Part shown: piece after piece, positions 14,743-50,943 of the stretch | Layout of the letters: each line of letters starts with the position of its first letter | Position numbering within the stretch: the first letter of the stretch is position 1 | DNA from: a virus | Reading direction: 5' to 3' (one strand) | Length of the DNA stretch: 64,000 nucleotides | Virus record (IMG/VR): IMGVR_UViG_3300025861_000007 | Made by a program: the position numbers and the translations under genes | The notes under the pieces: model-generated | Seen by the model: only the letters and a program-made list of their open reading frames with translations | The model's database searches: none | Told to the model about the DNA's origin: nothing

Positions 14743-15162
14743 TTATTTCATTTTTAGTTTCTCTAAAAATAGTTCATAACTACCGTTATTTAACGTTTTC
14801 AAATACACTAAAAAAGAACTCATACTTTTATCTTTAAAAGATAAATCACGTCTAAAAGTAGCTATTTCATACTGACCATCTTCGGTAACCACGTTAACAA
14901 TAGCAAACTGTTCACCCATATCAATGGTACGATACATACGTAACATAGATTTAACTTTATCTGGTGTTGCATCTGTGGCTAGGTCAAAATCTTTAGGTTG
15001 ATTACCCATTAATAAATCTCTAACAGCTCCACCAACAACGTATAATTCATGACCGTTTTCTTTAAAAATACGATTCATCCTTAATACGGATTCGGGTAAA
15101 TCCATACCTATCTTCTTTCTTACAATTTCCTCTTTCAATAAATTTCTAACCGTGTTCCTCAT
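14743..15162 (-). CDS. cca: CCA-adding tRNA nucleotidyltransferase, N-terminal piece
   Basis: YVVGGAVRDLLMG...KDFDLAT (catalytic DxD), YEIATFRRD, then a non-homologous 33-aa tail. Confidence 0.85.
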   Translation of the reverse strand: MRNTVRNLLKEEIVRKKIGMDLPESVLRMNRIFKENGHELYVVGGAVRDLLMGNQPKDFDLATDATPDKVKSMLRMYRTIDMGEQFAIVNVVTEDGQYEIATFRRDLSFKDKSMSSFLVYLKTLNNGSYELFLEKLKMK

Positions 15163-15211
15163 ATATTGTAAATATCAATATTTATGGCATATTTATAAAT
15201 AAAATCTACAC

Positions 15212-16048
15212 ATGAAAATTTTAAAACCAGGTGAAACAAACGTAAAAGGATTCCTAGTGGAATACGATTCAGGTTTCATATCACCCAATTTAGAATACAA
15301 AGGTAAGAAAAATTTAGATTTAATTAAAGAACATCTAACTCCAATGAGTTTCTTAAATGAATTTAAATCAGGTACCAATATAGGCAAAGATGGTAGTTTA
15401 CCAGATGTTGTTATAGTATATGCTGTATTACAAAAATGGGGTGTTGAAAATAAAAACGGAAGAATATATCCAAAAGAAATTCTCGAGAGAGAAAATAAAA
15501 AATATCAAGAATACATTAAGATGGGAACTTCTCTAGGTGAGTTAAATCACCCAGAGTCTTCAATTATCGATGCTGATAGGGTTTCACATAGAATTACTGA
15601 AACTTGGTGGGAAGGTAAAACCTTAATGGGTAAATTAGAATTAGATACCACACCTGGTTATCATAAACTTGGTGTTATTAGTTCTGTTGGTGACAAAGTT
15701 GTCAACATGATTAGAAAAGGGTGGACTGTTGGTATCTCATCTCGTGGTGTTGGATCCCTTAAACAAGAAGGTGGTAAAAATGTAGTACAAGACGATTTCG
15801 AATTAATCTGTTGGGATATCGTTACATCACCATCGACTCCAGGTTCTTGGATTTCTACTGATGACGGTGATTTAAAACAATTTACAGAATCCTATAGTAG
15901 AGATAATAATTGTAATGGATATACATGTCAATGGAATTTAGTAGAAGGATCATCTTCAATAACAATACCAAGTGATACTATTTTTAACGTACAAGGTACA
16001 AATAGAGATGTTAAATTATTAGACGGGTTAAACAAATTTTTAAAATGA
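15212..16048 (+). CDS. Prohead core protease (T4 gp21-like)
   Basis: NKNGRIYP, LGELNHP, VGISSRGVGS, DFELICWDIVTSPSTPGS. Confidence 0.93.
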   Translation: MKILKPGETNVKGFLVEYDSGFISPNLEYKGKKNLDLIKEHLTPMSFLNEFKSGTNIGKDGSLPDVVIVYAVLQKWGVENKNGRIYPKEILERENKKYQEYIKMGTSLGELNHPESSIIDADRVSHRITETWWEGKTLMGKLELDTTPGYHKLGVISSVGDKVVNMIRKGWTVGISSRGVGSLKQEGGKNVVQDDFELICWDIVTSPSTPGSWISTDDGDLKQFTESYSRDNNCNGYTCQWNLVEGSSSITIPSDTIFNVQGTNRDVKLLDGLNKFLK

Positions 16049-16422
16049 AAAAAGTAGTTAGACTTAAAGAAAATGATATTGAGAAACTCGTTAAGAAAAT
16101 CATCAGAGAAAATGATGAACAGTTGGGTATGGATCCTGAAGAAGAAGAATTTGGGGAGGAAGATGAAGATTACGGACAAGGTTATGAAATGGGGGAAGAA
16201 TTTGCAGGAGGACTTTTAGAAGAAATTCAATCTATTAGAGATAATGAAGAATTACTAGATACAGCTTTAAGAGGTTTTGTAGATGGTTTTAATGCGGAAA
16301 TGGAATCCAACGGAATTAACTTAGAACTTTCACACCTAATGCAAGGTTGGAGAGAAGGTATGGTGGAATCTTATAAGTTAAAAAATATTATTGACTATAA
16401 GAGAACTAAACGTAAAAAATAG
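16045..16422 (+). CDS. Acidic protein with putative capsid-targeting leader
   Basis: MKKVVRLKENDIEKLVKKIIREN; leader nearly identical to that of 24345..24779. Confidence 0.7.
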   Translation: MKKVVRLKENDIEKLVKKIIRENDEQLGMDPEEEEFGEEDEDYGQGYEMGEEFAGGLLEEIQSIRDNEELLDTALRGFVDGFNAEMESNGINLELSHLMQGWREGMVESYKLKNIIDYKRTKRKK

Positions 16423-16433
16423 ATATTTAAATT

Positions 16434-16472
16434 GCGCAGCTGCGCTTTTGCAAAAGCAGCTTAGCAAGCAGC
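16434..16472. other. GC-rich overlapping palindromes in intergenic DNA
   Basis: GCGCAGCTGCGC (16434-16445) and GCTTTTGCAAAAGC (16444-16457), plus AGCAGC repeats. Confidence 0.7.
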
Positions 16473-16493
16473 AAAAGATCAAAAAATTAAAAA

Positions 16494-17122
16494 ATGGAAA
16501 ATAGAATTAATAGACTTATTTGGGAAGCAAAAAATCAGGAAAACCTGTAAATCCTTGGGCTATTTGCACATCTTCAGTTGGTGGTAAAATTGGTGACACC
16601 AAAAGAACTGACTGGACTAAAGATCAAAAAGAAAGATATGAAAAATGTGTTAAAGATGTTAAGAAAAAATCTCCAATAAAAGAACATCATGGTGAAGATT
16701 GGAATCCAAAGATTTTAGATATGTCTTTAAATACTTTCTTAGATAAACTTAAGAATATTGATAAGTCTGGTTATGATAGAATAGAAGATATTATCGATAG
16801 AAATAAATCCAAAATTGTTAAGGAAGGTAGAATTAATGAATATGGTGGTTACGATGATCCAAGTATGTACGCTAGACACGCTGGTTCTTACATGGGTAAC
16901 GTAAAAGATGGGTATAATGCTATCGCAACAGTTTTAAATCATTTCGATAAATTAAGTGCTGAGATATTGGATGATAAATTACGTAAAGAAGTTGAAAAGT
17001 TTCTACTCCAAGTTCAAAATCCTTTAACTAGTTTAGGTAAAACAATTATCGATACTGAGAAAAGACATATAGGAAATCTTAGAGGTGGAAGACCAACTCC
17101 AAGACCTGAAGAAGGAGAGTAA
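16494..17122 (+). CDS. Putative head protein requiring a -1 frameshift at A6 (16529-16534)
   Basis: ATG 16494 gives MENRINRLIWEAK then stops at 16548; the -1 frame continues KSGKPVNPWAICTSSVGG to 17122. Confidence 0.65.
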
Positions 17123-17142
17123 TAAATAAAAATACTATAAAT

Positions 17143-17178
17143 AGGGGGATATGATTTACATATCCCCTTATTTTTTTT
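17143..17178 (+). terminator. Intrinsic terminator
   Basis: GGGGATATG-ATTTA-CATATCCCC followed by T-run. Confidence 0.75.
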
Positions 17179-17215
17179 ACTCTTAATTCAACATAAACAA
17201 TCAAAAATTTTAAAA

Positions 17216-17446
17216 ATGGATAGTGTAGTAAAGTACTTCTTAGTGAAAGTAGAATTTGAAACCATTAACGAGAGTAATGGAAAACAAAAAAAGATTAAAA
17301 CACAGTATCTTGTAGATGCTATGACGTGTACTGAGGCTGAAGCTCGTGTACGTACGTATTTGAAAGATTCTGTAATGGATTACGAAATTGTGAGCACAGC
17401 GAAAAGTCCTATTGAGGACGTAATTCAAGTTCCTGTAAAAGCTTAA
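17216..17446 (+). CDS. DUF4494-like small protein (Bacteroidota family)
   Basis: YFLVKVEFET..NGKQKKIKTQYLVDAMTCTEAEARV. Confidence 0.65.
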   Translation: MDSVVKYFLVKVEFETINESNGKQKKIKTQYLVDAMTCTEAEARVRTYLKDSVMDYEIVSTAKSPIEDVIQVPVKA

Positions 17447-17916
17447 TGACGATATTTTTTAGGTAAACCAACACGGTCAGCTAAATCTTGGAATATTCCT
17501 CCATGATTTCTTGCTTCTTCATCTTCGATACCGTGTGCCGCATGAATTAATTCATGTTTAATAATATCTTCAACGTAATCAGTGTCATTTAAGGCCTTGG
17601 GGTGTATTTTCATTACTCCAAGGTCTTTTTCATTTTCTGGGTGTTTAAAAGCACCTATCTTTCCGTCTTTAATATTATCATCAACTTTGATTACAATATT
17701 ATCACCGTTAACAGGTTCTTCACCTGTTAAGTCTTCGTAAGCATCCTCAACGTCCTGTTGAATCTGATCCTTCATATAAGAAACTTTTCTAGTAGCTTTT
17801 GGATATTTTGAATTCTTATCCAATTTTTTTTGCATATAGTCTGCCTTATCAGAAATATCGTTTTTTGTACGATTTTCAACGAATTCTCTTAGTACTCTTT
17901 TAATATTGTGTCTCAT
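17443..17916 (-). CDS. SprT-like zinc metallopeptidase
   Basis: IIKHELIHAAH followed by NHGGIFQDLADRVG; leader MRHNIKRVLRE; ATATTTAT upstream. Confidence 0.7.
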   Translation of the reverse strand: MRHNIKRVLREFVENRTKNDISDKADYMQKKLDKNSKYPKATRKVSYMKDQIQQDVEDAYEDLTGEEPVNGDNIVIKVDDNIKDGKIGAFKHPENEKDLGVMKIHPKALNDTDYVEDIIKHELIHAAHGIEDEEARNHGGIFQDLADRVGLPKKYRH

Positions 17917-17994
17917 TTACAATAAATATCTTTCTTTTTTAATAAAATTTTTTTCTTTTTTCTATTGACTCTTTGCACTTTGCGTGTGGCACAC

Positions 17995-18002
17995 ATATTT
18001 AT
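17995..18002 (+). promoter_or_regulatory. Putative phage late promoter ATATTTAT (example; about 18 copies in the window)
   Basis: Sense-strand copies shortly upstream of starts: + at 4270, 6403, 15189, 21514, 22476, 24322, 55489, 62432; - at 14715, 17922, 28144, 31712, 48390, 52573, 56658, 58416, 62164. Confidence 0.7.
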
Positions 18003-18004
18003 AT

Positions 18005-18167
18005 GACGGAGCGCTGCAAAGAATATATTAAAGCAAGGAATAAACATATTGTCTGGTTGTGGGATGCAGTCGGACACAAAACAAAAACAGGAGGAGGCGT
18101 TACCATTAGGTGAGTCTATGATTCCTGAAGCCCAACCTATCGCCTCTGGCGTGGGTGGGTAGTTCAC
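18005..18167 (+). mobile_element. Internally deleted IS200/IS605 element (tnpB 3' end / omegaRNA region)
   Basis: Starts GACGGAGCG; encodes TnpB tail AAKNILKQG...SGCGMQSD...EAQPIASGVGG*; ends TAGTTCAC. Confidence 0.8.
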
Positions 18168-18224
18168 TAATGAAATCTTGCACCTAATGTGCAAGTGATA
18201 ACCATTAAAAAGAAAAAATAGAAA

Positions 18225-19649
18225 ATGGCAAAAGAAAAAAAATCAATTATTGAGGAAGCTCTTCTTGAGGCTGAACAAATTGACGCCACTTTCAAATCTA
18301 ACGCAAAAGAAATACTAGCTCATACAATGAGTTCAGAAATTGAAGAAATGGTAAAGGAATCATTAACTGGTTCGAAAAAAAGAAGATTGAAAGAAGACGA
18401 AGAGGAAGAAGAAACAGATTTAAACCTTGATTTAGATTCTGACGAAGGTTCTGAAGATTTAGACCTAGATATTGACACTGAAGAAGGTGACGATGAAGGT
18501 GCTGAAGATTTAGACTTAGACGATGAATCTGAAGATGGTGAAGAAACTGAGGAAGATGAGTTGGATTTAGATTCTGATGATGAAGGTACTGAAGATGATT
18601 TAGACCTTGATTTAGGAGGAGAAGAAGACTTTGACCTTGGTGGTCTTGACTTAGGTGGTGAAGAACTTGAGGGTGGTATGGATGTCGACACTGTAGATCT
18701 TACAGGTGCTAGTGACTCCGATGTAATCTCCGTTTTTAAGAAAATGGGCCCAGAGGATGAAATCGAAGTTGTTAACGACAACGGTATGGTTACTCTCAAA
18801 GACAACAAATCTGGTTCTGAATATAGAATCGAACTTAACACTGGAGCAGGTGTTCCTTCAGTAGAAACTGAAGAACTTCAACTTGGTGAAAGTGAAGAAG
18901 AAGTAGATTCTGAAGAGGTTATCTATGAAATCGAAGTAGATGATGAGGATGAAATGTCTGACTATATGGAAATGGAAGACGATATGTCTTACATGAATAT
19001 GGGAAGTGAAGATTACATGTACAATGAACACCCAGTTTCCGATGAAGATGCGGTTAACGCAATGGGTCGTGAAGATGAAATGTCTGACTACATGTCACGT
19101 ACTTCTTATAATCAAGGACCTAACAACAAGCCTTTCCACAGAGAAGAGGGTACTGGTCATAGAAGAACTCCATACACAGGATTGGGTGAATCTACAAACC
19201 TTAAGACTCAAAAACTCATCAAAGAAAATACAAACTTAAATGTTAAAAATTCAACTCTTGAAAGTGAGAATAAAGAATTAAAAGAAAACCACGAAAAAAT
19301 GGTGGACGCTTTAAAACAATTCAGAAAGAAACTTCAAGAAGTGGCTGTGTTCAACAGCAATCTTACTTACGCTGTAAGACTATTCACTGAAAATTCAACT
19401 ACAAAAGAAGAAAAGAATGAAATTCTTAAAAGATTAGATTCTGCTAAGACTTTAAAGGAATCTCAATCTATTTATAAGCAACTTGTTAAAGAATATTCAA
19501 ATGGTAAAGCTCCTATTAAGGAATCTGTTGAAGAAAAAATAAACAAGACTGCAACTAGTGGTTCTGCACAAATCAGTGAACAAAGCGTTTTTGTACACCC
19601 TGAGTTACAAAGTATGAAGAAACTTTGGGAATATAGTTACAAAAAATAA
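18225..19649 (+). CDS. Prohead scaffold/core protein
   Basis: Very acidic, C-terminal coiled coil, lies between protease and capsid gene. Confidence 0.8.
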   Translation: MAKEKKSIIEEALLEAEQIDATFKSNAKEILAHTMSSEIEEMVKESLTGSKKRRLKEDEEEEETDLNLDLDSDEGSEDLDLDIDTEEGDDEGAEDLDLDDESEDGEETEEDELDLDSDDEGTEDDLDLDLGGEEDFDLGGLDLGGEELEGGMDVDTVDLTGASDSDVISVFKKMGPEDEIEVVNDNGMVTLKDNKSGSEYRIELNTGAGVPSVETEELQLGESEEEVDSEEVIYEIEVDDEDEMSDYMEMEDDMSYMNMGSEDYMYNEHPVSDEDAVNAMGREDEMSDYMSRTSYNQGPNNKPFHREEGTGHRRTPYTGLGESTNLKTQKLIKENTNLNVKNSTLESENKELKENHEKMVDALKQFRKKLQEVAVFNSNLTYAVRLFTENSTTKEEKNEILKRLDSAKTLKESQSIYKQLVKEYSNGKAPIKESVEEKINKTATSGSAQISEQSVFVHPELQSMKKLWEYSYKK

Positions 19650-19683
19650 TAATAAAATAAAAACAAAAAAAAACCAATTTAAA

Positions 19684-21426
19684 ATGGGATATTTATTAAA
19701 ATCAGGTGAGGTTGGAAATATCGGATTAAAACACCAAAAGGCTATCCGTGAGGCAACCGTAAACAAATGGGATTCATTAGGATTCCTAGAAGGTCTTGAA
19801 GGCCACATCAGAGAGAACATCGCTTTGTTATATGAAAACCAAGCATCAGTTCTTATTAACGAATCTACACAAGCTACTGGTGGTCAATCTACTGGTTCTT
19901 TCGAAACTGTAGTATTCCCTATCATAAGACGTGTGTTCTCTAAATTATTAGCTAACGACATCGTATCAGTTCAAGCATTGAACTTACCTATCGGTAAATT
20001 ATTCTACTTCATCCCTAAAACGGCTGATAGAAACGTTGACGGTACACACGATTCAATGTTCGTAGCAAACTGTGTTAACTGTTCTGAGTCTACATTCTCA
20101 GATTGTATGAAGAATCTTTACGATATTTTCTACAACGATGGTATGTATGATAACTCTAAAGGTGCTATCACAGTAGTAGCTGCTACAGGTACAGCAGTAA
20201 CTTGGACAGCTTGTACAACAGGTCATACCATGGAATTTGCAGCAGGTAAAACTCCAGCAGCAACTGACGGTACATTACGTCACCAAATCATCGAAGTTAA
20301 AGGTTTCTCTTCTTCAGCTCCTGGTCGTTTAATCGGTCCTGATGGAAATGAAATGGATACAGAATCTTTCTTAGCTTCATTAACTGTTGTAGCTAACGCT
20401 AACATCCTTGACCCAGATGGTCAAACTATCTTGTCAGTAGGTGACACAGTTCCTTTCCGTTTAGTAGCTCAAAAATACGGTAGAGGTATCGTAGATTACG
20501 GTGATATTTGTTCTCCTGATGGAAAACTTTACATCGAAATCGATTTAACTCACCCAACTTGTGTTTCTTGTTCAAGAAACACATTCGATGGATACATCGG
20601 TGCTAACTATACAGCAACAACAATCAACAACTCTAGTATGTTAATCACTTTCAGACAGTACGCTGACCTTGAAATGGAAGACAGAATGGGTGAAGTAACT
20701 TTCGAACTTGAATCTGTAACTGTATCTGTTACTGAACGTAAGTTGAGAGCTACATGGACTCCTGAATTAGCTCAAGACGTTAGTGCATTCCACAACATTG
20801 ATGCTGAGGCAGAATTAACAGCATTGTTATCTGAACAAATTGCAGCTGAAATCGACCGTGAAATCTTGATGGATTTACGTAAAGGTGCAGCATGGCAATT
20901 ACGTTGGGATTACAACGGTTGGAAGCGTTTACCAAACAACAATGGTTACACTCAAAAAGATTGGAACCAAACGTTGATGACAGCTATCAACCAAATTTCA
21001 GCTCAAATCCACAAAGCTACATTGAGAGGTGGTGCTAACTTCGTAGTTGTATCTTCTGAAGTATCAGCAGTATTCGATGATTTAGAATACTTCCACGTAT
21101 CAAACGCAGCTCCTGAGCAAGACCAATATAACATGGGTATCGAAAGAGTTGGTTCATTAAGCGGTCGTTACACTGTTTACCGTGACCCATATTCTCCTTC
21201 TTACTCTGTGTTAATCGGACACAAAGGTAAGTCATTGTTAGACACTGGTTACATCTACGCTCCATACGTACCGATGCAGTTGACTCCTACAATGTACAAT
21301 CCGTTCAACTTCGTACCTGTTAAAGGTATCATGACTCGTTACGCTAAAAAAATGGTCAATAACCGCTTCTACGGGCATATCCGTGTAGATGGTTTAAGAA
21401 CATTTGACGTAAGAGAATTAAGATAA
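19684..21426 (+). CDS. Major capsid protein (T4 gp23-like)
   Basis: RKLRATWTPELAQD, IDAEAELTALLSEQIAAEIDREIL, YIYAPYVP, GIMTRY. Confidence 0.96.
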   Translation: MGYLLKSGEVGNIGLKHQKAIREATVNKWDSLGFLEGLEGHIRENIALLYENQASVLINESTQATGGQSTGSFETVVFPIIRRVFSKLLANDIVSVQALNLPIGKLFYFIPKTADRNVDGTHDSMFVANCVNCSESTFSDCMKNLYDIFYNDGMYDNSKGAITVVAATGTAVTWTACTTGHTMEFAAGKTPAATDGTLRHQIIEVKGFSSSAPGRLIGPDGNEMDTESFLASLTVVANANILDPDGQTILSVGDTVPFRLVAQKYGRGIVDYGDICSPDGKLYIEIDLTHPTCVSCSRNTFDGYIGANYTATTINNSSMLITFRQYADLEMEDRMGEVTFELESVTVSVTERKLRATWTPELAQDVSAFHNIDAEAELTALLSEQIAAEIDREILMDLRKGAAWQLRWDYNGWKRLPNNNGYTQKDWNQTLMTAINQISAQIHKATLRGGANFVVVSSEVSAVFDDLEYFHVSNAAPEQDQYNMGIERVGSLSGRYTVYRDPYSPSYSVLIGHKGKSLLDTGYIYAPYVPMQLTPTMYNPFNFVPVKGIMTRYAKKMVNNRFYGHIRVDGLRTFDVRELR

Positions 21427-21454
21427 TCTTAGTTGAATAAGATAAACAAAAATT

Positions 21455-21526: not shown

Positions 21527-22207
21527 ATGAAACGTAAAAAATTTTCACAAGAAGAAGTAAATAAAATTATTAAAATGTATACTGAAGAGTATAAAGGTAC
21601 GCCTACAATATCTGAAGAGTTTAATTGTTCTAAAGCTGTTATTAATCGTACATTACGTGAAAATAATATACAGTTAGGCCCTTCTGGTCGTAAATGGACT
21701 GGTGGTAAAGAAGTTGCTGATAAAAAATGGAGAGAAAAGAATAAAGATAAAATAAACGACTACCATAAAGAATGGTTTCAAAAAAATAAAGACCATCGTA
21801 AACAATACCATAAAGAATGGCGGGAGAAGAACAAAGAAACCTATCAAGAATATCGTCGTAATTACGAAAAAACCAAAAAAGATTCCGACCCAAGTTACAG
21901 ATTGGCAAGTTATACCCGTACAGCAATTTATACTTGTTTAAAAGAACGTAATATTAACAAGTATAAAAATACATTTGATTTATTACCTTATAACTTGGAA
22001 GATTTAATAGTACATTTGGAAAATAAATTTCAAGATGGTATGAATTGGGAAAACTATGGTCAATGGCATGTTGACCATATTAAACCAATGAGTTCTTTTG
22101 TTTTTGAAAATTTCGAAGATAAAGAATTTCAAGAATGTTGGTCGTTAACCAATCTCCAACCATTGTGGGGTCAGGAAAACTTGTCTAAAGGGTCTAAAAT
22201 TATTTAA
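21527..22207 (+). CDS. HNH homing endonuclease
   Basis: WHVDHIKP...WSLTNLQPLWGQENLSKG; N-terminal HTH; own ATATTTAT. Confidence 0.85.
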   Translation: MKRKKFSQEEVNKIIKMYTEEYKGTPTISEEFNCSKAVINRTLRENNIQLGPSGRKWTGGKEVADKKWREKNKDKINDYHKEWFQKNKDHRKQYHKEWREKNKETYQEYRRNYEKTKKDSDPSYRLASYTRTAIYTCLKERNINKYKNTFDLLPYNLEDLIVHLENKFQDGMNWENYGQWHVDHIKPMSSFVFENFEDKEFQECWSLTNLQPLWGQENLSKGSKII

Positions 22208-22487: not shown

Positions 22488-22802
22488 ATGAAAGACTTAA
22501 TATATAAAATATTAAAAGAATCGGAATTTGATTGGTTACCAGATAGTCCTTTTGGTATCGACGATAATTTAATGAATTATCTGATTCAAAACTATCCTGT
22601 TGGTAAATACCGTGAAAGTGCTGCAGAATTTTTAGGTGACAAATATGTAATGGTAGATGAAAAGCCATATCCACTTGAAAATCGTAAAAAACAAATAACT
22701 AATAAAATTTATTGGGAGGTTGTTGATGAATTTCCTAATGTAAACGAACCTGTTTTAAGAAGAACAATTAAAACGTTTTTAAACAATGCCGCTGGTAATT
22801 AA
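22488..22802 (+). CDS. Hypothetical protein with putative capsid-targeting leader
   Basis: MKDLIYKILKESEFDW; ATATTTAT at 22476. Confidence 0.7.
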   Translation: MKDLIYKILKESEFDWLPDSPFGIDDNLMNYLIQNYPVGKYRESAAEFLGDKYVMVDEKPYPLENRKKQITNKIYWEVVDEFPNVNEPVLRRTIKTFLNNAAGN

Positions 22803-24344: not shown

Positions 24345-24779
24345 ATGAAAAAGGTAATTAGACTTAAAGAAAATGATATAGAGAGACTTGTGAAGAAAAT
24401 CATCAAAGAAGATGATGGCCAACCACAAGTAGAAAAGAAAGAAAAAACACCAGAACCGATTAGAATGCATCAAGTTGGTGATGGAGTTCTTCCAACAATA
24501 GATGATATTATATTAGCAATCCAAAAGGCTAAAATGTCTTTCGAATCTTTGGTTAACACAAAATTAACAGGTAAAGAGGGTTACGTAAAAGAAATTGATG
24601 GAATTGTTAATGACTTCACTAAACTTGAAGATAAGGTTAGAAAGTCTAAAGAAAAAATTTCTTCATTCGTAATCCAACAACGTGAAAAAAAGAAAGTTGA
24701 TCACATGGCTCACAGAAAGATGGAGATGAGAAACAAAAGACGTGAGGCTGAAGATAATGGAAACCTATACGCGTATTAA
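24345..24779 (+). CDS. Hypothetical protein with putative capsid-targeting leader
   Basis: Likely start MKKVIRLKENDIERLVKKIIKED at 24345. Confidence 0.7.
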   Translation: MKKVIRLKENDIERLVKKIIKEDDGQPQVEKKEKTPEPIRMHQVGDGVLPTIDDIILAIQKAKMSFESLVNTKLTGKEGYVKEIDGIVNDFTKLEDKVRKSKEKISSFVIQQREKKKVDHMAHRKMEMRNKRREAEDNGNLYAY

Positions 24780-25071: not shown

Positions 25072-25114
25072 TCAATAGACTTTACATAGGGAAATGTGTT
25101 TGTATTTTTATAAA

Positions 25115-25327
25115 GACGGAGCGTAAAACCAAACCATCTTTAGTGGTTTGGATGTAAGCGACAAAATTTGTATATTTGCATTGTCAGTATAAGACATTAA
25201 AACCTCGTAAGGGACTTGCGAGTACACGAGTGGAGCAAAAATAAGACTTCTAACTTCTTCGGAAGCAGTAAGCACAAGCTATGAAACTCGAAGCACATTC
25301 ATCACGAAGTGTGGATGTGTAGTTCAC
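25115..25327 (+). mobile_element. Miniature non-autonomous IS200/IS605 derivative
   Basis: Left end GACGGAGCG plus hairpin CCAAACCA-TCTTTAG-TGGTTTGG; TnpB-tail-like GTCEYTSGAKIRL; right end TAGTTCAC. Confidence 0.75.
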
Positions 25328-25343
25328 ATAAACACATTTTTTT

Positions 25344-26168
25344 ATGCAAAAAATTCACTTAATAGCAGGACTACCAAGAAGTGGTTCTACACTTTTATGT
25401 AATCTTTTAAACATGAATCCTAAGTTTCATGCAACAGCAACATCTCCTTTATTGGATGTTATGAGAAATATTAGGACCACGTTTTCACACAACCCAACTT
25501 ATAAATCACACAATAGATTAGAAGAGTTAGATAATATCAAAAGAGCTACTAAAGCTTTCATTGAAAATTATTACGACCCAACAAAAGAAGTTGTTTTCGA
25601 TAAATCTCGTGGGTGGGTTTCTAATCTTATGATTTTAGATGAGATTTTAGGTCATAAAGAGACTAAAATTATTTGGACTTACCGTGACCCCGTTGAGATT
25701 ATTTCTAGTATTGAAAAACATCACAATAAAACCTTAATGTTTGAAAATGTTGATGAATCAAATGGTTTAGATTTTTCTACATTAGAGGCTCGTGTTAATA
25801 ATTTTATCAATGATAATGGTATTGTGGCTAGACCAGTATGGTTATTAAATGATGCTTATGATATGGGATTCAACGATAGAATTTTAATAATCAGATATGG
25901 TGATTTAACGATGTATCCACAAGAAACCTTAAATAAAATACATGATTTCTTAGGGTTAGAGAAATACCACTATTCTCAAAATGATTTTAAAGATTTAAAA
26001 CAAAGTACTTTTGAATGGGACGGAATCTATAACTATAAATTCCCCCACACAATTAAAGAGGGTGAGGTTAAGTACGTTAAACATAATGTAAAATTACCAG
26101 ACCATATTAAAGAGAAAATTAATACTAGATTTTCTTGGGTTAACGACTTAGTCCGAGGAATGAAATAA
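25344..26168 (+). CDS. Sulfotransferase family protein
   Basis: IAGLPRSGSTLL (5'-PSB), FDKSRGW, YRDPVEIISS (3'-PB), IRYGDL. Confidence 0.85.
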   Translation: MQKIHLIAGLPRSGSTLLCNLLNMNPKFHATATSPLLDVMRNIRTTFSHNPTYKSHNRLEELDNIKRATKAFIENYYDPTKEVVFDKSRGWVSNLMILDEILGHKETKIIWTYRDPVEIISSIEKHHNKTLMFENVDESNGLDFSTLEARVNNFINDNGIVARPVWLLNDAYDMGFNDRILIIRYGDLTMYPQETLNKIHDFLGLEKYHYSQNDFKDLKQSTFEWDGIYNYKFPHTIKEGEVKYVKHNVKLPDHIKEKINTRFSWVNDLVRGMK

Positions 26169-26198
26169 AAAAACCCCGAATATTCGGGGTTTTTTATT
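26167..26198. terminator. Bidirectional intrinsic terminator
   Basis: AAAAAACCCCGAA-TA-TTCGGGGTTTTTT. Confidence 0.85.
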
Positions 26199-26218
26199 GG
26201 AAGAAATCTTTGGACTTG

Positions 26219-26573
26219 TCAGCGAAAAGCCTCATTCACAGGATTAAATACGTTAAATCTTTTCCATGAATAAGGGTCAATAGACATTTTTAAATAATCT
26301 AAAGCCCAATCAAAATCATCACCCTCTACATAGGCCTGACCTTTCCATTTTTGGATAGTGGCAATTGTATACCTAACATTTTCTTTAGTTGGATTTAATT
26401 TTAATTCAGCTATTGCCTCACCAATCTCATCATCTGATTGATATGCCTGACCCCCCCATTCTTCAAGGACCTTTTATTCCGTCCTCAACCCAAGGTAAAT
26501 AAACGTTCATTGGTTTAATATCATCAAACCATTCTTGTTCTTCTTTTAATATTTTCTTGATTAAACTTCTCAT
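26219..26573 (-). pseudogene. Frameshifted gene (missed by ORF track) with putative capsid-targeting leader
   Basis: MRSLIKKILKEEQEWFDD...GIKGP* (stop 26463-26465); +1 frame continues VLEEWGGQAYQSDDE...NEAFR* to 26219. Confidence 0.6.
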
Positions 26574-28129
26574 TAACACCAATCTTTTTCAGATACAACT
26601 TCAAAAGGTATGATATCAGGATAAGTTCTAACCTCATTACCTGATTCTATTTTAATTTCTAAGAAATAATCGTTTGGAATAAACCAAGAAGTATCAACTA
26701 AGAAGAAGTTACCGTCAGGAGTTCTACTTACCTCCTGCCAGTCAATATAATCGATTTGGATGTGTCCACCTTCTTTAATAAATATTCTATAGTAAACTTT
26801 ATCTAAAGTTGCCGTTTGGTCATATGTGTAAGGAATACGTACTGCAACGTTAACACGTCTTGTATCACCCCTTTTAATTTTTTCTTTTCTCTTAATACCC
26901 GTTACATTAAATTCATAATCATAGATAGAAAGATTGTTTGTACTACCAACACCTAAACCGTTAGCTCCAGCCGCGTTAGACGAACCAATATTATAATAAC
27001 CTTTATCATCTAATACAATAAAGTTAAGTTCAACATCACCTAAGTTTTTAGAACCTATAGTTACATCTTCCCAAACATCACGGAATTGAATGTTACCACA
27101 ATAACCTGAAACAGGATCGTCATCTACACAAACATTCACACAATAAACACCTGTTGTTACTTGAGTAATTCCTGAAGGTGGTATAGTTTGATATACATAA
27201 TCATTTTGGTCATAGATTGTAACACCTGAGAAGGTTGCATTTACAGCCTGCCCTCCAGCGTTAACATATAAACAAAGATTATTACATTTATTTAAATAAA
27301 ATTTGTTACGGTCATCCTTAATCATATCATCCCAAGTGGTTTCAATGAAAGGTTCATAAACAGTATTGGTTTCACGACCAAAGAACCCAACATATTCAGC
27401 ATCCTCTAAAGGAGCTATTTCCAATGGGTTATGGAAGGCTAAACCTAATCCGTATGTTAAACCCGTATATCCACTGCTTATGAGACCGTTAATGTAGTCT
27501 GTAATATCAATACATACGTTTTCATTACCGTGGTCGAAGTGTTGTGTGGCAATGATTAAATTAGTTCCTCCACTACATACCGTTGTGCCTGTTGTACCAC
27601 TAGTACCACCACTTGTAGTACCTGAAGAACACCAATTTGTTGGGTCATCGTATATACCTGGGTTTGACCAACAAGTGATTAAATCTTCTCTAACAAACCA
27701 ATTGGATGGCCCTTCACAATAAGTCTTATCACTATCAGCACAAGAAACTCTTGTGTATGTATAATCGTAACCGTTACCCTCACACCACGCTTCAGGTACT
27801 TCGAATAAGATTAAATCAAAACAAGTAGCTCTTTTAACATCACCTAAACAAGAGGCAACAGTTTTACAGAATTGTTCTTGGTCGAAACAAGATGTGTTAG
27901 TCATCTTGAGAACATGTCTCATATTATTAACCTCACTAATTTCTTTAGTATTAATTTTTTGGATTATTTCTTCAAAATTTAAATCAAAAATATATCTTGA
28001 ATATTTTACCTCATCGGGGTTTAATGAACCACCGTGAAATAATTCAACAATAGGATTTCTACCCGTATTAACATACGAATTTCTAACTATTGTATTGTCT
28101 TTGGAGAAGTATGTACGTAGTATTCCCAT
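26573..28129 (-). CDS. Cys-rich putative virion structural protein
   Basis: 518 aa, SGT-rich linker, ATATTTAT upstream, next to baseplate gene. Confidence 0.65.
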   Translation of the reverse strand: MGILRTYFSKDNTIVRNSYVNTGRNPIVELFHGGSLNPDEVKYSRYIFDLNFEEIIQKINTKEISEVNNMRHVLKMTNTSCFDQEQFCKTVASCLGDVKRATCFDLILFEVPEAWCEGNGYDYTYTRVSCADSDKTYCEGPSNWFVREDLITCWSNPGIYDDPTNWCSSGTTSGGTSGTTGTTVCSGGTNLIIATQHFDHGNENVCIDITDYINGLISSGYTGLTYGLGLAFHNPLEIAPLEDAEYVGFFGRETNTVYEPFIETTWDDMIKDDRNKFYLNKCNNLCLYVNAGGQAVNATFSGVTIYDQNDYVYQTIPPSGITQVTTGVYCVNVCVDDDPVSGYCGNIQFRDVWEDVTIGSKNLGDVELNFIVLDDKGYYNIGSSNAAGANGLGVGSTNNLSIYDYEFNVTGIKRKEKIKRGDTRRVNVAVRIPYTYDQTATLDKVYYRIFIKEGGHIQIDYIDWQEVSRTPDGNFFLVDTSWFIPNDYFLEIKIESGNEVRTYPDIIPFEVVSEKDWC

Positions 28130-42033: not shown

Positions 42034-42035
42034 AC

Positions 42036-45366: not shown

Positions 45367-45402
45367 TTTTTTATTATTTGTAAAATTAAACTTCATTTAA
45401 AA

Positions 45403-45894: not shown

Positions 45895-46193
45895 TATTTT
45901 TTAGGTTTATAAAATGTATAACTAGCAGTTAATTCTTCTCCTGCTTTAATTTCTCTAATAGTTTCTAAGAAGATGAAATCACCTTCATAGACTACTTTAC
46001 AATTAGGTTTTTCCGAGTGGTTAAAAAATCCACCTAACGGAGTTCTTGAATAACCATCGGGAAACCTAAAATCTCTAACATGTGTAACTCCAATTCTAAA
46101 ATTAGGGTCTATATTGTCTAAAGCAAAAAGACCTAAACCTTCTATATTAGAAGTTTTAATGGTTAGATATTCGGGTAATGGTCTATAACTCAT
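45894..46193 (-). CDS. Minimal SET-domain protein
   Basis: IEGLGLFA, GGFFNHSEKPNC, IKAGEELTASY. Confidence 0.85.
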   Translation of the reverse strand: MSYRPLPEYLTIKTSNIEGLGLFALDNIDPNFRIGVTHVRDFRFPDGYSRTPLGGFFNHSEKPNCKVVYEGDFIFLETIREIKAGEELTASYTFYKPKK

Positions 46194-46837
46194 TATTTTT
46201 TACCTGTTGATCCGAACCCTCCAGTCCCTCTTTCGGTTTCAGACATTTCACTCACTGATTCTAATTCAATCATAGCACCAAAATCATTACTTACTCTAGG
46301 TGCGATAACACCTTGTGCAACTCTCTCACCTTGTTCTATGATTTGTTCTTTATCACTAAGGTTAATCATAATAACTTTGATTTCACCACGATAACCTGTA
46401 TCTACTGTACCTAAAATAGCCATAAGGCCTGTTTTAAATGAATGACCACTACGAGGTCTAATTTGTAACTCGTAACCTGTCGGTAATTCAAAATATAATC
46501 CTGTTGGGATTAAGGTTCTTTCGAGAGGTTTTAAGGTTAGTTTACCACCAACCTCAGATAATTCAGCTCTTAAATCAAAACCTGAATCACCATCTTTTGC
46601 CCAAGTAGGATTCTCATTTTTAGATGTGTTAACAAATTTAATTGGTAATTTGAACGCATCTTTGTCGGCTTTAAATGAATTATTTTTACTATCTAAATCT
46701 TCCATTATTTTAATTAAATTATCTAATTCTTTTGCTTGGTCACCACTTATTACTCCTATGGACTTCAAGTGTTGTAATTCTTTAATGTATTCTTTAATAT
46801 CGTTATTCATTTGAATTGTATTTTTTAATAATTTCAA
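46193..46837 (-). CDS. dut: dUTPase
   Basis: SGFDLRA, QIRPRSG, GTVDTGYRGEI, RGTGGFGSTG. Confidence 0.93.
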   Translation of the reverse strand: MKLLKNTIQMNNDIKEYIKELQHLKSIGVISGDQAKELDNLIKIMEDLDSKNNSFKADKDAFKLPIKFVNTSKNENPTWAKDGDSGFDLRAELSEVGGKLTLKPLERTLIPTGLYFELPTGYELQIRPRSGHSFKTGLMAILGTVDTGYRGEIKVIMINLSDKEQIIEQGERVAQGVIAPRVSNDFGAMIELESVSEMSETERGTGGFGSTGKK

Positions 46838-47540: not shown

Positions 47541-47689
47541 TGTTATGCGTTTGCAAATTTAACAACTTCTTTCACTCTTTCACTACCTTCTCTTTACATA
47601 TAATAACCCACCCTTTGTTTTTGCCGTATGATTTTAATGTCTCTACACTAACATTTAATGAGTTTTCTTTTACATAATCTTTAAATGAA

Positions 47690-48373: not shown

Positions 48374-48414
48374 AATAGTATTTTTATATATAAATATTTA
48401 TTACTTAGATGTAG

Positions 48415-49740
48415 TTACCTAAAATTATTAATTTCTTCTGTCAATTTTTTGACATTTTTTTCATTACTGGTCATGATTTGTTTATACCAAGAAGCTCTTG
48501 TTTTGGTTACAACATCGATATGATATTTTTTAACAACAGTATCATAAAGATTTTGACCCATTCTTTCAACCATATGTGGGTTTTTCTCTAAAAATTTAAT
48601 GGCTTTAAACCAATCTTTATGATTCTTAGTTGAATCGACAAGGATTGCATTACCATTCTCATTTATTGTACCACCATACTCAATTACATTGACTAAATCA
48701 ATAGTGTATGGTCCAAAGTTCTGTGCAATTAAGGCTTTCTTGTGGAAACCAGCCTCGATAACTTTAAGTTGGGATTTACACTTATTAAAGATATGGTCCT
48801 TAATTGGTGCCAACGAAATATCGAACATATTATAGTTTGAGGCGTATGTTGTAATCGGTTTAGTCCACACTCTTCTATAATTTTCGTTATTGTCTTTATA
48901 TTCATTATCTTCATCCTGATTGTATTTCAACAAATGTTTTTTATATTCAGGACTGATAATTTTATAATTGTCGGTAAACATTTCTTCATAACGACACCAA
49001 ACACTTTCTTGTGGTAAAATCTTTCTTGTTCTTTGTTCACCTGTTTGTGGGTTTGTTTCTGTGATATTACCTCTTAAGTCAAAACCACAAAGAACTAATT
49101 GTGAATCCTCACCTTGAGGTGAATGCATCCATTGATTCAAACCTTGTCTAACAAGTTCTAAGTCTCTTAAGTGGGAAGAACCACCTAACCAACCAATTCT
49201 CATTTTTTTATTACTGATAACTTCTTTCTTTTGGAACTGTTCTTCAGATGGGTCAATAGCGTTAGGAATTACAACAACATTTTTATTGAACTTAGATATT
49301 TCTTGAGCGAATATTTTAGTAGTCGTTGTTACATAATCAACAACCTTTAAATTGGCTTTAATTTTTTCATCAATTTTAGATTGTTTCAATAATGGGTATG
49401 CTGGGTGATCCATAGTAGGCATCCAATAATCATCTAAATCCATGATTGTGATAATACCCATACCTTTTAATTTATCAAAAATCTTTTTAGCATGTTCATC
49501 ATAAACAGGTTGTAACTGACCATTTACAATGTCACTTACAGTTCTATGGAAATGTACAATATGGAATTGTTTTAAATAGTTATCATCATTCCAATGAACA
49601 CCATCAGTACCTGCTGTTACTATATCAATGAAAAAATCATCAGGAAATAATTCATGTAATTTTAAGTGTGGGTCGACTGACCTAAATTTTGATACCCCAC
49701 TTCTGTCTGAAGGTATTACTAAAACTTTAATTTGACTCAT
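48415..49740 (-). CDS. GT4-like glycosyltransferase
   Basis: IMDLDDYW, VIPNAID, IGWLGGSSH, KSQLKVIEAG. Confidence 0.85.
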   Translation of the reverse strand: MSQIKVLVIPSDRSGVSKFRSVDPHLKLHELFPDDFFIDIVTAGTDGVHWNDDNYLKQFHIVHFHRTVSDIVNGQLQPVYDEHAKKIFDKLKGMGIITIMDLDDYWMPTMDHPAYPLLKQSKIDEKIKANLKVVDYVTTTTKIFAQEISKFNKNVVVIPNAIDPSEEQFQKKEVISNKKMRIGWLGGSSHLRDLELVRQGLNQWMHSPQGEDSQLVLCGFDLRGNITETNPQTGEQRTRKILPQESVWCRYEEMFTDNYKIISPEYKKHLLKYNQDEDNEYKDNNENYRRVWTKPITTYASNYNMFDISLAPIKDHIFNKCKSQLKVIEAGFHKKALIAQNFGPYTIDLVNVIEYGGTINENGNAILVDSTKNHKDWFKAIKFLEKNPHMVERMGQNLYDTVVKKYHIDVVTKTRASWYKQIMTSNEKNVKKLTEEINNFR

Positions 49741-49771
49741 ATTAATTCTTAAATTCTTATTATTATAAAAT

Positions 49772-49802
49772 AAAAAACCCTCTACAAAAGTGAGGGTTTT
49801 TT
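49772..49802 (-). terminator. Intrinsic terminator
   Basis: AAAAAACCCTC...GAGGGTTTTTT. Confidence 0.75.
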
Positions 49803-49822
49803 AGTTTTTTGTAAAGGTTACA

Positions 49823-49879
49823 TTATTTTTTTCCTTTAGGAGTACCTTTCTTGCCTTTACATCCACAACCTTTTTCCAT
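49823..49879 (-). CDS. Putative 18-aa basic micropeptide
   Basis: MEKGCGCKGKKGTPKGKK*, A-rich leader, terminator downstream. Confidence 0.5.
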   Translation of the reverse strand: MEKGCGCKGKKGTPKGKK

Positions 49880-49903
49880 TTTTCTTTTTTTTTAATTTAG
49901 ATG

Positions 49904-50557
49904 TTATCCTTTTCTCTTTGGCATTGGCATTACGGTACCAGAAAAGATAGTGTTACCTGCCTTAAATTGAACATTTTCTTTAACCAAACGAGATTCAAAG
50001 TAGTGTTCGATAATTTTAGGGAGAGCCTTTGTTATTTCTGAAGCTATTAACTTTCTTAAATATTTTTCGTCAACATTAACTGGTTCAGATATTTGTTCTT
50101 GAATTACCCTCTTTTTTTGTGTTTGTGTTCTTCTTACGGGTTTTTCGTACATATCAATCTCATCTTCCTCACTGTAAGTTGAATGATTTTCTCTAACATC
50201 ACCTCTTAATTCTCTAATAGCATCTTCATCTACATCCATTCCCATAAAATCTGGTTGTGGGATTGGGTTTTCTAACATTGCCTTTTGAATTGCTGGAGGT
50301 AATTTACAACTTGTAACTCTTTGATTGTACATCTCAGAGCCGACATCTTTTTTAATTGATGTTACATTCTCCGATACCATCATGTTACCACCTGAATGTG
50401 CCATACCAGCTTCTTCTGCGGTAATTAATTTAGTACCATCGATTTGATCGTATAGACCTGCTGATTTCGATTTTTTGGGTGCCCCGTTATCAAACTTTTC
50501 AGCTGCCTTATCTATTTGTTTGGCCTTTTTTAATATTTCTAATAATTTTGGATCCAT
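49904..50557 (-). CDS. Hypothetical protein
   Basis: 217-aa ORF. Confidence 0.7.
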   Translation of the reverse strand: MDPKLLEILKKAKQIDKAAEKFDNGAPKKSKSAGLYDQIDGTKLITAEEAGMAHSGGNMMVSENVTSIKKDVGSEMYNQRVTSCKLPPAIQKAMLENPIPQPDFMGMDVDEDAIRELRGDVRENHSTYSEEDEIDMYEKPVRRTQTQKKRVIQEQISEPVNVDEKYLRKLIASEITKALPKIIEHYFESRLVKENVQFKAGNTIFSGTVMPMPKRKG

Positions 50558-50943
50558 TAAAACCTTGCTTGTTTATATATTGTTATCATACTTCTATCAC
50601 CTCTAGGGTTATATTTCGGTATATTTCTTACTCTGTCTGAAATTGGTGTTCTAAAAGGTAGTTCTCCAGTTTCATCCCAATCTAATATTCTATCCAATCT
50701 AAAAGTTTTCCATCCTGGTTGTTCAGTATCGGTAACACCTTTATATTGGTAGGCACGTAAAATTGGGTTGCCTGCAAGTGATAGTCCTAGTACATAGGGT
50801 TCAATAAATCTCTCCCCTGGTGCTTCAACCTCATCACCACCATAATTTATTCTAACACGGTTATGGTTTGTGATTGCTCTCTCCACTTCTGACCTGTAGG
50901 CAGCTTCTAAAATAATCTCATTTAGAAGAGAGTAAAGTTTCAT
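50557..50943 (-). CDS. Stand-alone WYL-domain protein
   Basis: Likely start MKLYSLLNEIILEA; INYGG...RFIEPYVLG...LRAY...WKTFRLDRI. Confidence 0.75.
   Translation of the reverse strand: MKLYSLLNEIILEAAYRSEVERAITNHNRVRINYGGDEVEAPGERFIEPYVLGLSLAGNPILRAYQYKGVTDTEQPGWKTFRLDRILDWDETGELPFRTPISDRVRNIPKYNPRGDRSMITIYKQARF

What the first reader, a model, noticed from the sequence alone, without database searches (positions are those of the whole stretch)
14743..50943. Shared N-terminal leader on unrelated genes: a candidate capsid-targeting cargo system
Seen: MRNTVRNLLKEE (cca N-half), MKKVVRLKENDIEKLVKKIIRE (16045), MENRINRLIWEA (16494), MRHNIKRVLREF (SprT, 17916), MKDLIYKILKES (22488), MKKVIRLKENDIERLVKKIIKE (24345), MRSLIKKILKEE (26573), MKLYSLLNEIILEA (WYL, 50943). 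The bodies of these proteins are unrelated, and several have the ATATTTAT motif upstream. Known: T4 internal proteins carry a ~10-aa capsid-targeting sequence ending in Glu, removed by gp21 at (I/L)xE; a gp21-like protease is at 15212. Inference: this phage packages and injects a tRNA-repair enzyme, a metalloprotease, a WYL protein and several unknowns.
Basis: partly seen in the sequence, partly recalled or inferred. Interest (0 to 1): 0.85.

Follow-up and report, generated by a model that had tools for sequence, protein, structure and literature searches.

The report
Shared capsid-loading leader on phage proteins
An uncultured T4-related giant phage from wastewater puts the same 11-residue N-terminal tag, ending in its head protease's cut site, on dozens of unrelated proteins. 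The tag most likely loads them into the capsid for delivery with the DNA, as T4 does with its three internal proteins, but no virion data exist.

Summary
All eight peptides sit at the stated coordinates.

- **Short leader:** four genes carry M-[KR]-x-L-I-[KR]-K-I-L-[KR]-E: cca N-half, SprT-like, p104 and the 26573 gene. The 16494 gene has a diverged copy.
- **Long leader:** two genes (16045, 24345) carry a 22-residue double version.
- **WYL:** its N-terminus does not fit the profile.
- **Broken genes:** the 16494 and 26573 genes are frameshifted here but intact in relatives.

The leader is almost only at N-termini: 44 seen against 0.14 expected, on over 55 unrelated protein families in more than 120 viral contigs. 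Two near-complete 318-380 kb relatives carry about 17 clear copies each. It is essentially absent from 596 Gbp of bacterial genomes.

Conservation stops exactly at Glu11, with Leu/Ile at position 9. That is the L/I-x-E site of T4 gp21, and the phage has a gp21-type protease. Codon usage shows selection on the peptide. Leader genes share the ATATTTAT upstream word with head genes.

Best reading (about 0.6): a capsid-targeting propeptide. Packaging and cleavage are inferred, not shown. This is a new variant of a known kind. This scan noted analogous leaders, with other sequences, in other phage lineages.

The parts
15212..16048 (+). Prohead protease, T4 gp21 type (Peptidase_S77). His113 and Ser176 align with T4 His85 and Ser140.
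   Evidence: Pfam PF03420, E = 6e-30. 33% identity to T4 gp21. PDB 5JBL, E = 3e-20.
14743..15162 (-). N-half of a split CCA-adding enzyme. Short leader MRNTVRNLLKE occupies 15130-15162. The gene runs divergently from the protease gene.
   Evidence: PolyA_pol head domain at residues 40-117. Leader profile 13.4 bits. Intact 510-769 aa orthologues in relatives all start with the leader.
16045..16422 (+). Acidic 125-aa protein directly after the protease. Long 22-residue leader MKKVVRLKENDIEKLVKKIIRE occupies 16045-16110. It has two L/I-x-E sites. It sits in the position of a T4 gp67/gp68-type core protein and is acidic like gp67.
   Evidence: The second half of the leader matches the short-leader profile at residues 14-23. 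The same leader sits on at least 7 unrelated bodies just downstream of the protease in relatives. T4 gp67 for comparison.
16494..17122 (+). p209, with a diverged short leader MENRINRLIWE (16494-16526). The gene is broken by a 1-nt shortfall in the A-run at 16526-16531. It was read with X at the break.
   Evidence: The frameshift is reproduced in run X1, which may be the sample this DNA was assembled from. It is absent from three other studies. Orthologues keep I/L-x-E.
17443..17916 (-). SprT-like metalloprotease (HExxH). Short leader MRHNIKRVLRE occupies 17884-17916. ATATTTAT lies 13 nt upstream.
   Evidence: Pfam SprT-like, 24.9 bits, just under the 25.6 cut-off. Leader 15.8 bits. 22 orthologues, all with the leader. 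Upstream word.
18225..19649 (+). gp22-like acidic scaffold protein. Its N-terminus carries I-I-E and L-L-E sites. It is the presumed docking partner of the leader.
   Evidence: Position between protease and capsid gene, plus composition. N-terminal likeness to T4 gp22 by eye. No family hit.
19684..21426 (+). Major capsid protein, gp23 type. A conserved L-[IL]-x-E (I58-N59-E60, 19855-19863) precedes a variable linker. This is the predicted propeptide cut.
   Evidence: tblastn to T4-like capsid genes. Alignment of 35 relatives and T4 gp23.
22488..22802 (+). p104. Short leader MKDLIYKILKE (22488-22520) is followed by SEFDW and a 94-aa domain. ATATTTAT lies 12 nt upstream.
   Evidence: Leader 21.2 bits. 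The same domain recurs as the C-terminal half of two-domain proteins, where it is always preceded by L-x-E.
24345..24779 (+). p144. Long leader MKKVIRLKENDIERLVKKIIKE (24345-24410) on a body unrelated to the 16045 protein. ATATTTAT lies 23 nt upstream.
26219..26573 (-). p36/p118. Short leader MRSLIKKILKE (26541-26573). The gene is broken by a frame change near 26468. It starts on the stop codon of the 518-aa gene upstream.
   Evidence: 62% identity to the intact L011 orthologue when read with X at the break.
50557..50943 (-). WYL-domain protein. Its N-terminus MKLYSLLNEIILE has the CTS format but is not this leader. Doubtful member.
   Evidence: Pfam WYL at residues 18-89. Absent from the window's 25 best profile scores, all others being under 2.5 bits. 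The N-terminus is conserved within orthologues only.

Best explanation
The leader is a capsid-targeting propeptide, working like the T4 CTS.

**Proposed mechanism**
1. The 11-residue amphipathic helix has a hydrophobic face (L4, I5, I8, L9) and basic residues at 2, 6, 7 and 10.
2. It docks late-made proteins onto the acidic scaffolding core while the prohead forms.
3. The gp21-type serine protease then cuts after Glu11, with P3 = Leu/Ile.
4. This frees the mature protein inside the head, and it leaves with the DNA at infection.

**Variants**
- The 22-residue long form is a double leader with two cut sites. It is used by core-type proteins next to the protease gene.
- Two-domain cargo keeps an internal L-x-E at the domain junction, so it may be cut into separate domains.

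**Predicted cargo in this window**
- the leader-bearing N-half of the tRNA CCA-adding enzyme
- a SprT-like metalloprotease
- p104, p144, p125, p209 and the 26573 protein

**Shown here:** the leader's existence, position, portability, sharp end at Glu, peptide-level selection and restriction to phages, plus the presence of the protease.

**Inferred:** docking, cleavage, packaging and injection.
For: - **N-terminal specificity.** 44 hits against 0.14 expected. 58 N-terminal against 2 internal at 12 bits or more.
- **Sharp boundary.** Fixing only residues 1-8, position 9 is Leu or Ile in 62 of 64 and position 11 is Glu in 63 of 64. Conservation collapses at residue 12. This matches the L/I-x-E rule of gp21 (PMC9026906).
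- **Peptide-level selection.** Codons at leader positions follow genome usage. Arg6 uses AGA, CGT and CGA.
- **Portability.** About 20 unrelated bodies occur around the head genes and 55 clusters among 85 further ORFs. These include Fe/Mn SOD, NUDIX and L5 gp82-like proteins and a weak Acb1 match, as well as CCA enzyme and SprT.
- **Protease.** It has the catalytic His and Ser. Every leader-bearing contig that is at least 90% complete has an S77 protease.
- **Capsid protein.** It keeps L-[IL]-x-E at the expected propeptide boundary.
- **Head operon.** Proteins between the protease and scaffold genes, where T4 has its core proteins, carry the leader.
- **Co-regulation.** 31 of 40 leader genes have ATATTTAY within 40 nt upstream, against 258 of 948 other genes. 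The word also precedes the terminase and protease genes.
- **Phage-only.** More than 120 viral stretches, against 18 stretches in 596 Gbp of cellular genomes. Most of those 18 are chance or out-of-frame matches.
- **Internal junctions.** Junctions of two-domain proteins retain only L-x-E of the leader.
- **Precedent.** T-even Ip proteins share only a packaging leader (PMC12373910; PMC3012670).
Against: - No virion proteome, N-terminal sequence or expression data exist for this uncultured clade.
- The leader has no sequence similarity to the T4 CTS.
- The closest cultured relatives by capsid gene (Flavobacterium phage immuto, Microcystis phage Mel-JY01) lack it in their capsid-gene regions, the only parts scanned.
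- Cargo bodies are net acidic (-0.057 per residue), whereas T4 Ips are basic (PMC9026906).
- About 17 clear copies per genome, spread over the whole genome, is far more than in T4.
- The ATATTTAT word is not proven to be a late promoter. It also precedes homing endonuclease genes.
- The interface prediction for protease plus leader gave no answer.
Confidence: 0.6

Rival explanations
1. The leader is an N-terminal sorting or binding helix for another purpose. Examples are membrane association, recruitment to a replication or assembly site, or binding to a common chaperone or adaptor. Any cleavage after Glu would be absent or incidental, and the proteins would not be packaged.
For: - It is a basic amphipathic helix, a format that also binds membranes or acidic partners.
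- Cargo is numerous, acidic and dispersed over the genome.
- Enzymes such as SOD, NUDIX and the CCA enzyme work well in the cytoplasm.
Against: - It does not explain why conservation ends exactly at an invariant Glu with Leu/Ile at P3.
- It does not explain why internal junctions keep only L-x-E.
- It does not explain why proteins in the core-protein slot of the head operon carry the leader.
- It does not explain the link with head-gene upstream words.
Confidence: 0.2
2. The leader is a pro-sequence cut by the prohead protease or another protease. Cleavage would activate or time late enzymes, without stable packaging or injection of the products.
For: The same L-x-E evidence applies. Enzymes such as a metalloprotease could need a pro-form.
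Against: gp21-type proteases are described as acting on proteins already inside the prohead core (PMC9026906). A substrate that meets the protease would therefore already be inside the head. A constant 11-residue helix is more than a cut site needs.
Confidence: 0.1
3. The shared 5' end is a nucleic-acid feature, and the peptide is a by-product. It could be a recombination junction for gene cassettes, a translation-initiation enhancer, or a recognition tag for a modifying enzyme such as a radical-SAM maturase.
For: - The leader is AT-rich and sits right behind a conserved upstream word.
- Leader genes occur in tandem arrays in variable regions.
Against: - Synonymous codons vary as in the rest of the genome, and Lys/Arg swaps cross codon families.
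- Radical-SAM genes are absent from 4 of 5 complete leader-bearing genomes, including the two richest.
- A role as a recombination junction is compatible with a CTS and is not an alternative to it.
Confidence: 0.07
4. The pattern is chance or a compositional artefact of an AT-rich genome rich in Lys, Ile, Leu and Glu.
For: A bare [IL]-x-E occurs in about 9.5% of random 9-residue windows in these proteins. The WYL and dUTPase N-termini may be such cases.
Against: The excess over internal positions is about 300-fold. Reversed-pattern controls give 0-1 hits against 4-19.
Confidence: 0.01

Closest known systems
T4 capsid targeting sequence (CTS) of internal proteins IPI, IPII, IPIII and Alt, removed by gp21
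   Same: - N-terminal, 10-12 residues, starting Met-Lys.
- Hydrophobic residues in the middle.
- Ends in L/I-x-E.
- Sits on proteins that share nothing else.
- The phage has a gp21-family protease, a gp22-like scaffold and a gp23-type capsid protein.
   Different: - No sequence similarity to MKTYQEFIAE.
- One residue longer and strongly basic.
- Roughly 17 carriers per genome and more than 55 families, against 3-4 in T4 and about 10 among the T-evens.
- Cargo includes enzymes of up to 861 aa and is net acidic.
- A long double form and internal L-x-E junctions exist.
- Function is untested.
Propeptides of head and ejection proteins in phiKZ-like giant phages (phiKZ gp175, 201phi2-1, SPN3US gp245)
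   Same: Giant phages with a gp21-related protease cut many head proteins after Glu and package many ejected proteins (PMC9026906; PMC5694885).
   Different: As far as I know, those propeptides are long and protein-specific, not one short shared leader. Their cleavage motif differs. These points rest on my own knowledge of the field and were not checked here.
T4 prohead core proteins gp67 and gp68
   Same: The 16045 protein is small and very acidic, is encoded next to the protease gene, and has an N-terminal amphipathic helix with L/I-x-E.
   Different: There is no detectable homology. Gene order differs: here the gene follows the protease, whereas in T4 it precedes it.

Membership tests
T4-type capsid targeting sequence / internal-protein system | Short leader at the extreme N-terminus of the precursor | tested here: met
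   58 N-terminal hits against 2 internal at 12 bits or more. The module is 11 residues long.
T4-type capsid targeting sequence / internal-protein system | Leader ends in the gp21 site L/I-x-E | tested here: met
   Position 9 is Leu or Ile in 62 of 64. Position 11 is Glu in 63 of 64. Only residues 1-8 were fixed for this test.
T4-type capsid targeting sequence / internal-protein system | Same leader on proteins with unrelated mature parts | tested here: met
   20 clusters and 55 clusters. The Pfam families differ.
T4-type capsid targeting sequence / internal-protein system | Phage encodes a gp21-family (S77) prohead protease with the catalytic His and Ser | tested here: met
   It is present in every leader-bearing genome that is at least 90% complete.
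T4-type capsid targeting sequence / internal-protein system | Sequence relatedness of the leader to the T4 CTS MKTYQEFIAE | tested here: not met
   T4 IPII and IPIII score below zero with the leader profile. The likeness is of format only.
T4-type capsid targeting sequence / internal-protein system | Expression together with head genes | tested here: inconclusive
   The upstream word is shared with the terminase and protease genes and is enriched at leader genes. Its timing is not known.
T4-type capsid targeting sequence / internal-protein system | Proteins present in virions, cut after the Glu, and leader sufficient to package a foreign protein | not testable with these tools
   The clade is uncultured. 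No relative of the SprT-like cargo was found in phage isolates. The complex prediction gave no answer.
Leader recognised by a radical-SAM/SPASM maturase (RiPP-like) | Co-occurrence of the leader with a radical-SAM enzyme gene | tested here: not met
   PF04055 is absent from G002, G003, G011 and G012. It is present only in G010.
Sec or Tat signal peptide | Hydrophobic core of about 10 or more residues after a basic N-region, or a twin-arginine motif | tested here: not met
   Read from the consensus: charged residues sit at positions 2, 6, 7, 10 and 11, and there is no hydrophobic run.

The most novel reading that the evidence does not exclude
The leader, together with a second portable element, defines a modular cargo-loading code in uncultured T4-related phages, the near-complete ones 295-380 kb. 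The second element is an acidic-aromatic [DE]-F-[DE]-W-[VI] motif 3-6 residues after the cut site.

Under this reading, dozens of enzymes and effectors per genome are made as leader-tagged precursors or two-domain polyproteins. Examples are a tRNA CCA-adding repair enzyme, a SprT-like protease, superoxide dismutase, a NUDIX hydrolase and an Acb1-like protein. They would be cut at each L-x-E by the prohead protease and injected.

The exposed FDW neo-N-terminus would serve as a retention or ejection signal. The tag would then list the injected proteome of a whole uncultured phage group from sequence alone.
Probability: 0.3. Interest if true: 0.8.

Novelty: new variant of a known kind. Interest (0 to 1): 0.62.

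Why it matters
**If the leader is a capsid-loading tag.** It would be a sequence-only handle on which proteins an uncultured giant-phage lineage delivers into its host at the first moment of infection. Known examples of such proteins, T4 Ip1-3, are anti-defence factors (PMC12373910).

The predicted cargo is unusual for virion proteins. It includes a tRNA 3'-end repair enzyme, a metalloprotease, superoxide dismutase and a NUDIX hydrolase. That points to pre-loaded counter-measures against tRNA-cutting, oxidative or nucleotide-signalling defences.

The short, portable tag could also be tested as a protein-packaging tool outside T4.

**If it is not a capsid tag.** A phage-only 11-residue N-terminal module on more than 55 protein families still needs an explanation.

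Tried and rejected
- **Interface prediction.** Protease residues 1-235 with p104 residues 1-40 gave no answer: score 0.00, controls not run. This is no evidence either way.
- **AlphaFold2 model.** A two-domain cargo (L030, 280 aa, 9-row alignment) gave mean pLDDT 47. Only the C-terminal p104-like domain (about residues 204-280) is confident. The leader helix (2-11) and the LKESEE-FGW junction are low-confidence. This fits a flexible linker, but the alignment is too shallow to count.
- **Cultured relatives.** Megablast of the head region and tblastn of the SprT-like cargo against 50,697 phage records found nothing. The capsid-gene regions of Flavobacterium phage immuto and Microcystis phage Mel-JY01 lack the leader. 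Only looser amphipathic N-termini with V/I-x-E occur on small proteins encoded next to their protease genes.
- **Literature.** A full-text search for the leader peptide strings found no paper.
- **Radical-SAM rival.** Rejected.
- **RNA-level rival.** Rejected on codon usage.
- **WYL protein.** Rejected as a member on profile score.
- **dUTPase N-terminus.** MNNDIKEYIKE (46193-46810) fits only the loose pattern and is taken as chance.
- **Late sigma factor.** Pfam and PHROGs scans of 10 window proteins each found nothing that would confirm a late sigma factor.
- **Frameshift at about 26468.** Laying reads did not settle whether it is real. The X1 contig differs from the window by two gap letters somewhere in 25301-26650, and the site was not listed.
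Full report
**What the window is.** The window comes from a distant T4-like phage.
- Large terminase at 4300, portal at 6443.
- Peptidase_S77 prohead protease at 15212-16048. It is 33% identical to T4 gp21, with His113 and Ser176 aligned to the T4 catalytic His85 and Ser140.
- An acidic gp22-like scaffold gene at 18225.
- A gp23-type capsid gene at 19684, whose best cultured matches are only about 40% identical.

The DNA occurs in activated-sludge and wastewater metagenomes from several studies. Relatives that are at least 96% complete are 295-380 kb.

**The observation.**
- **Short leader (four genes).** cca N-half starts at 15162 on the minus strand, SprT-like at 17916 minus, p104 at 22488 plus, and the 26573 gene on the minus strand. 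They score 13-21 bits against a leader profile, while other window proteins score under 2.5.
- **Diverged short leader.** The 16494 peptide keeps the same spacing: I5, L8, I9, E11.
- **Long leader (two genes).** The proteins at 16045 and 24345 carry a 22-residue form. Its second half (LVKKII[KR]E) matches the short leader, and its first half (MKKV[VI]RLKE) ends in another L-x-E.
- **WYL.** Its N-terminus is conserved among WYL orthologues but is a different sequence.

Two leader genes are broken in this strain.
- The 16494 gene lacks one A of an A-run. L030 has the A and an intact gene. Contigs from three other studies carry one extra letter at the same place, which also restores the frame. 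Run X1, which may be the sample this DNA was assembled from, reproduces the window's version.
- The 26573 gene changes frame near 26468. It aligns over its full length with an intact 128-aa orthologue when read with X at the break.

**Is it more than chance?**
- In the window plus 80 related loci, a strict pattern hits 44 of 1500 N-termini, against 0.14 expected from its internal frequency.
- A profile gives 58 N-terminal hits and 2 internal at 12 bits or more.
- In five related genomes the back-translated pattern hits 4-19 times each, against 0-1 for the reversed control.
- Fixing only residues 1-8, residue 9 is Leu or Ile in 62 of 64 and residue 11 is Glu in 63 of 64. From residue 12 on there is no conservation.
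- Codon choice at the conserved positions follows genome usage, and Arg6 uses AGA, CGT and CGA. Selection is therefore on the peptide.

**How portable is it?**
- Around the head genes the leader sits on about 20 unrelated bodies.
- 85 further leader ORFs fall into 55 clusters of 69-861 aa.
- Most bodies have no Pfam family. Those that do include the CCA-adding enzyme, a SprT-like protease, Fe/Mn superoxide dismutase, NUDIX, L5 gp82-like, GP88, DUF4314 and a weak Acb1 match.
- In 596 Gbp of bacterial and archaeal genomes there are only 18 stretches. Most are out of frame, internal or chance; one is a FolE N-terminus.
- Two of them look like phage DNA. A contig in a Prochlorococcus single-cell assembly also carries an S77 protease, and a small contig binned with a Planctomycetales MAG encodes a known leader protein behind the phage's upstream word.

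**Link to head assembly.**
- The protease family cuts after L/I-x-E (PMC9026906).
- The capsid protein of all 35 relatives compared keeps L-[IL]-x-E at residues 57-60, just before a variable linker. This lies near where T4 gp23 is cut.
- Proteins encoded between the protease and scaffold genes carry the leader. In T4, the core proteins gp67 and gp68 are encoded next to the protease gene.
- The CCA enzyme gene lies divergently next to the protease gene in every relative examined and always starts with the leader, whether it is 510, 646 or 769 aa.
- Every leader-bearing contig that is at least 90% complete has an S77 protease.

**Link to regulation.**
- The word ATATTTAT[AT] lies 12-30 nt before a start codon in 15 of its 21 occurrences in the window. 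The genes it precedes include terminase, protease, a 518-aa gene, several homing endonucleases, SprT, p104 and p144.
- It is the most enriched upstream word in the clade.
- It precedes 31 of 40 leader genes, against 258 of 948 other genes. Those genes are related to one another, so the p-value overstates independence.
- The remaining window leader genes sit downstream of genes that have the word.
- That it is a late promoter is inference.

**A second element.**
- One third of leader proteins (44 of 136) have [FYW]-x-W 3-6 residues after Glu11, typically [DE]-F-[DE]-W-[VI]. The background rate is 0.7%.
- The 94-aa domain of p104 recurs as the C-terminal half of two-domain leader proteins. In all eight such cases the junction keeps L-x-E followed by SEE-FDW, while the residues before the Leu differ.
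- Similar I/L-x-E ... FDW junctions occur inside other proteins.
- This fits cleavage at internal sites into separate domains that share one type of new N-terminus. It could also be a structural start of those domains. The AlphaFold2 model was too poor there to decide.

**Interpretation.** The best reading is a capsid-targeting propeptide that works like the T4 CTS. The amphipathic basic helix would dock on the acidic core. The protease would cut after Glu11, and the mature proteins would stay in the head and enter the host with the DNA.

None of these steps is shown here. The likeness to T4 is in format and machinery, not in leader sequence.

Points against:
- the large number of carriers and their spread over the genome;
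- the acidic cargo;
- the lack of any cultured carrier;
- the unproven timing of the upstream word.

Rivals:
- Another sorting or binding role for the helix (0.2).
- A pro-sequence without packaging (0.1).
- A nucleic-acid-level or maturase-tag role (0.07). This is weakened by codon usage and by the absence of radical-SAM genes from 4 of 5 complete genomes.

**Known or new?** A shared packaging leader on otherwise unrelated injected proteins is textbook for T-even phages (PMC3012670; PMC12373910). New here are:
- a non-homologous leader in an uncultured, distant lineage;
- the scale, with more than 55 families and roughly 17 copies per genome;
- enzymatic cargo;
- the double leader;
- the L-x-E/FDW junction.

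No paper with these peptide strings was found. This scan has noted analogous leaders with other consensus sequences in other phage lineages. It has also noted the FDW module and the ATATTTAT regulon in a related genome. Those are unchecked notes, and I used them only as leads.

Noticed in passing
window 4270-58423 (e.g. 4270, 8365, 14722, 15189, 17929, 21514, 22476, 24322, 28151): ATATTTAT[AT] lies 12-30 nt upstream of a start codon in 15 of 21 occurrences. The distances fall in two classes, 12-13 nt and 20-30 nt. The short class would leave almost no 5' leader on the mRNA. The word precedes head genes, leader genes and homing endonuclease genes. It is the top enriched upstream word in the clade.
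   Followed up: partly
window 12501-15162: The CCA-adding enzyme gene is split by a GIY-YIG endonuclease gene (14028-14702) and a small ORF. Relatives have intact genes of 510 aa, or 646-769 aa with an extra N-terminal region. Only the 139-aa N-half keeps the leader here.
   Followed up: partly
window 16526-16531: The frameshift in the head-operon gene p209 sits on the heptamer A-AAA-AAT. It is reproduced in the contig of run X1, which may be the source sample. Three other studies have one more letter there. It may be a real mutation or a site of -1 slippage.
   Followed up: partly
window 16432-16475, also repeated in relatives: A conserved GC-rich palindromic stretch (GCGCTTTTGCAAAAGCAGC...) lies between the 16045 gene and the 16494 gene. 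It is nearly invariant across relatives. A separate short stretch near 26170-26210 recurs in both orientations in several relatives. They may be terminators or regulatory hairpins.
   Followed up: no
window 18003-18167 and 25113-25337: Relatives in other studies skip these stretches exactly (three studies for the first, two for the second), so both are insertions in this strain. This fits the miniature-element reading in other notes on this window.
   Followed up: partly
residues 12-24 of leader proteins, e.g. window 22521-22550; internal junctions in L013, L005, L030, L219: An acidic-aromatic motif [DE]-F-[DE]-W-[VI] follows the cut site in one third of leader proteins. It also follows internal L-x-E junctions. 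Its function is unknown.
   Followed up: partly
L244 (Prochlorococcus sp. AG-409-L21 single-cell assembly, contig 9): A 64-kb contig in a Prochlorococcus single-cell genome carries two leader genes and an S77 protease. It is probably a phage of the marine branch of this clade caught in or on the sorted cell.
   Followed up: partly
window 21527-22207: One related strain (run X8) shows a joint from the capsid gene's end (21431) to 22505, inside the p104 leader. It skips 1073 nt that hold this 226-aa gene and the 78-aa gene, but the contig's own letters at the joint are not known, so other DNA may lie there.
   Followed up: no
window 46193-46810: A dUTPase carries a 65-residue N-terminal extension that starts MNNDIKEYIKE. 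It fits only the loose leader pattern and is probably chance.
   Followed up: no
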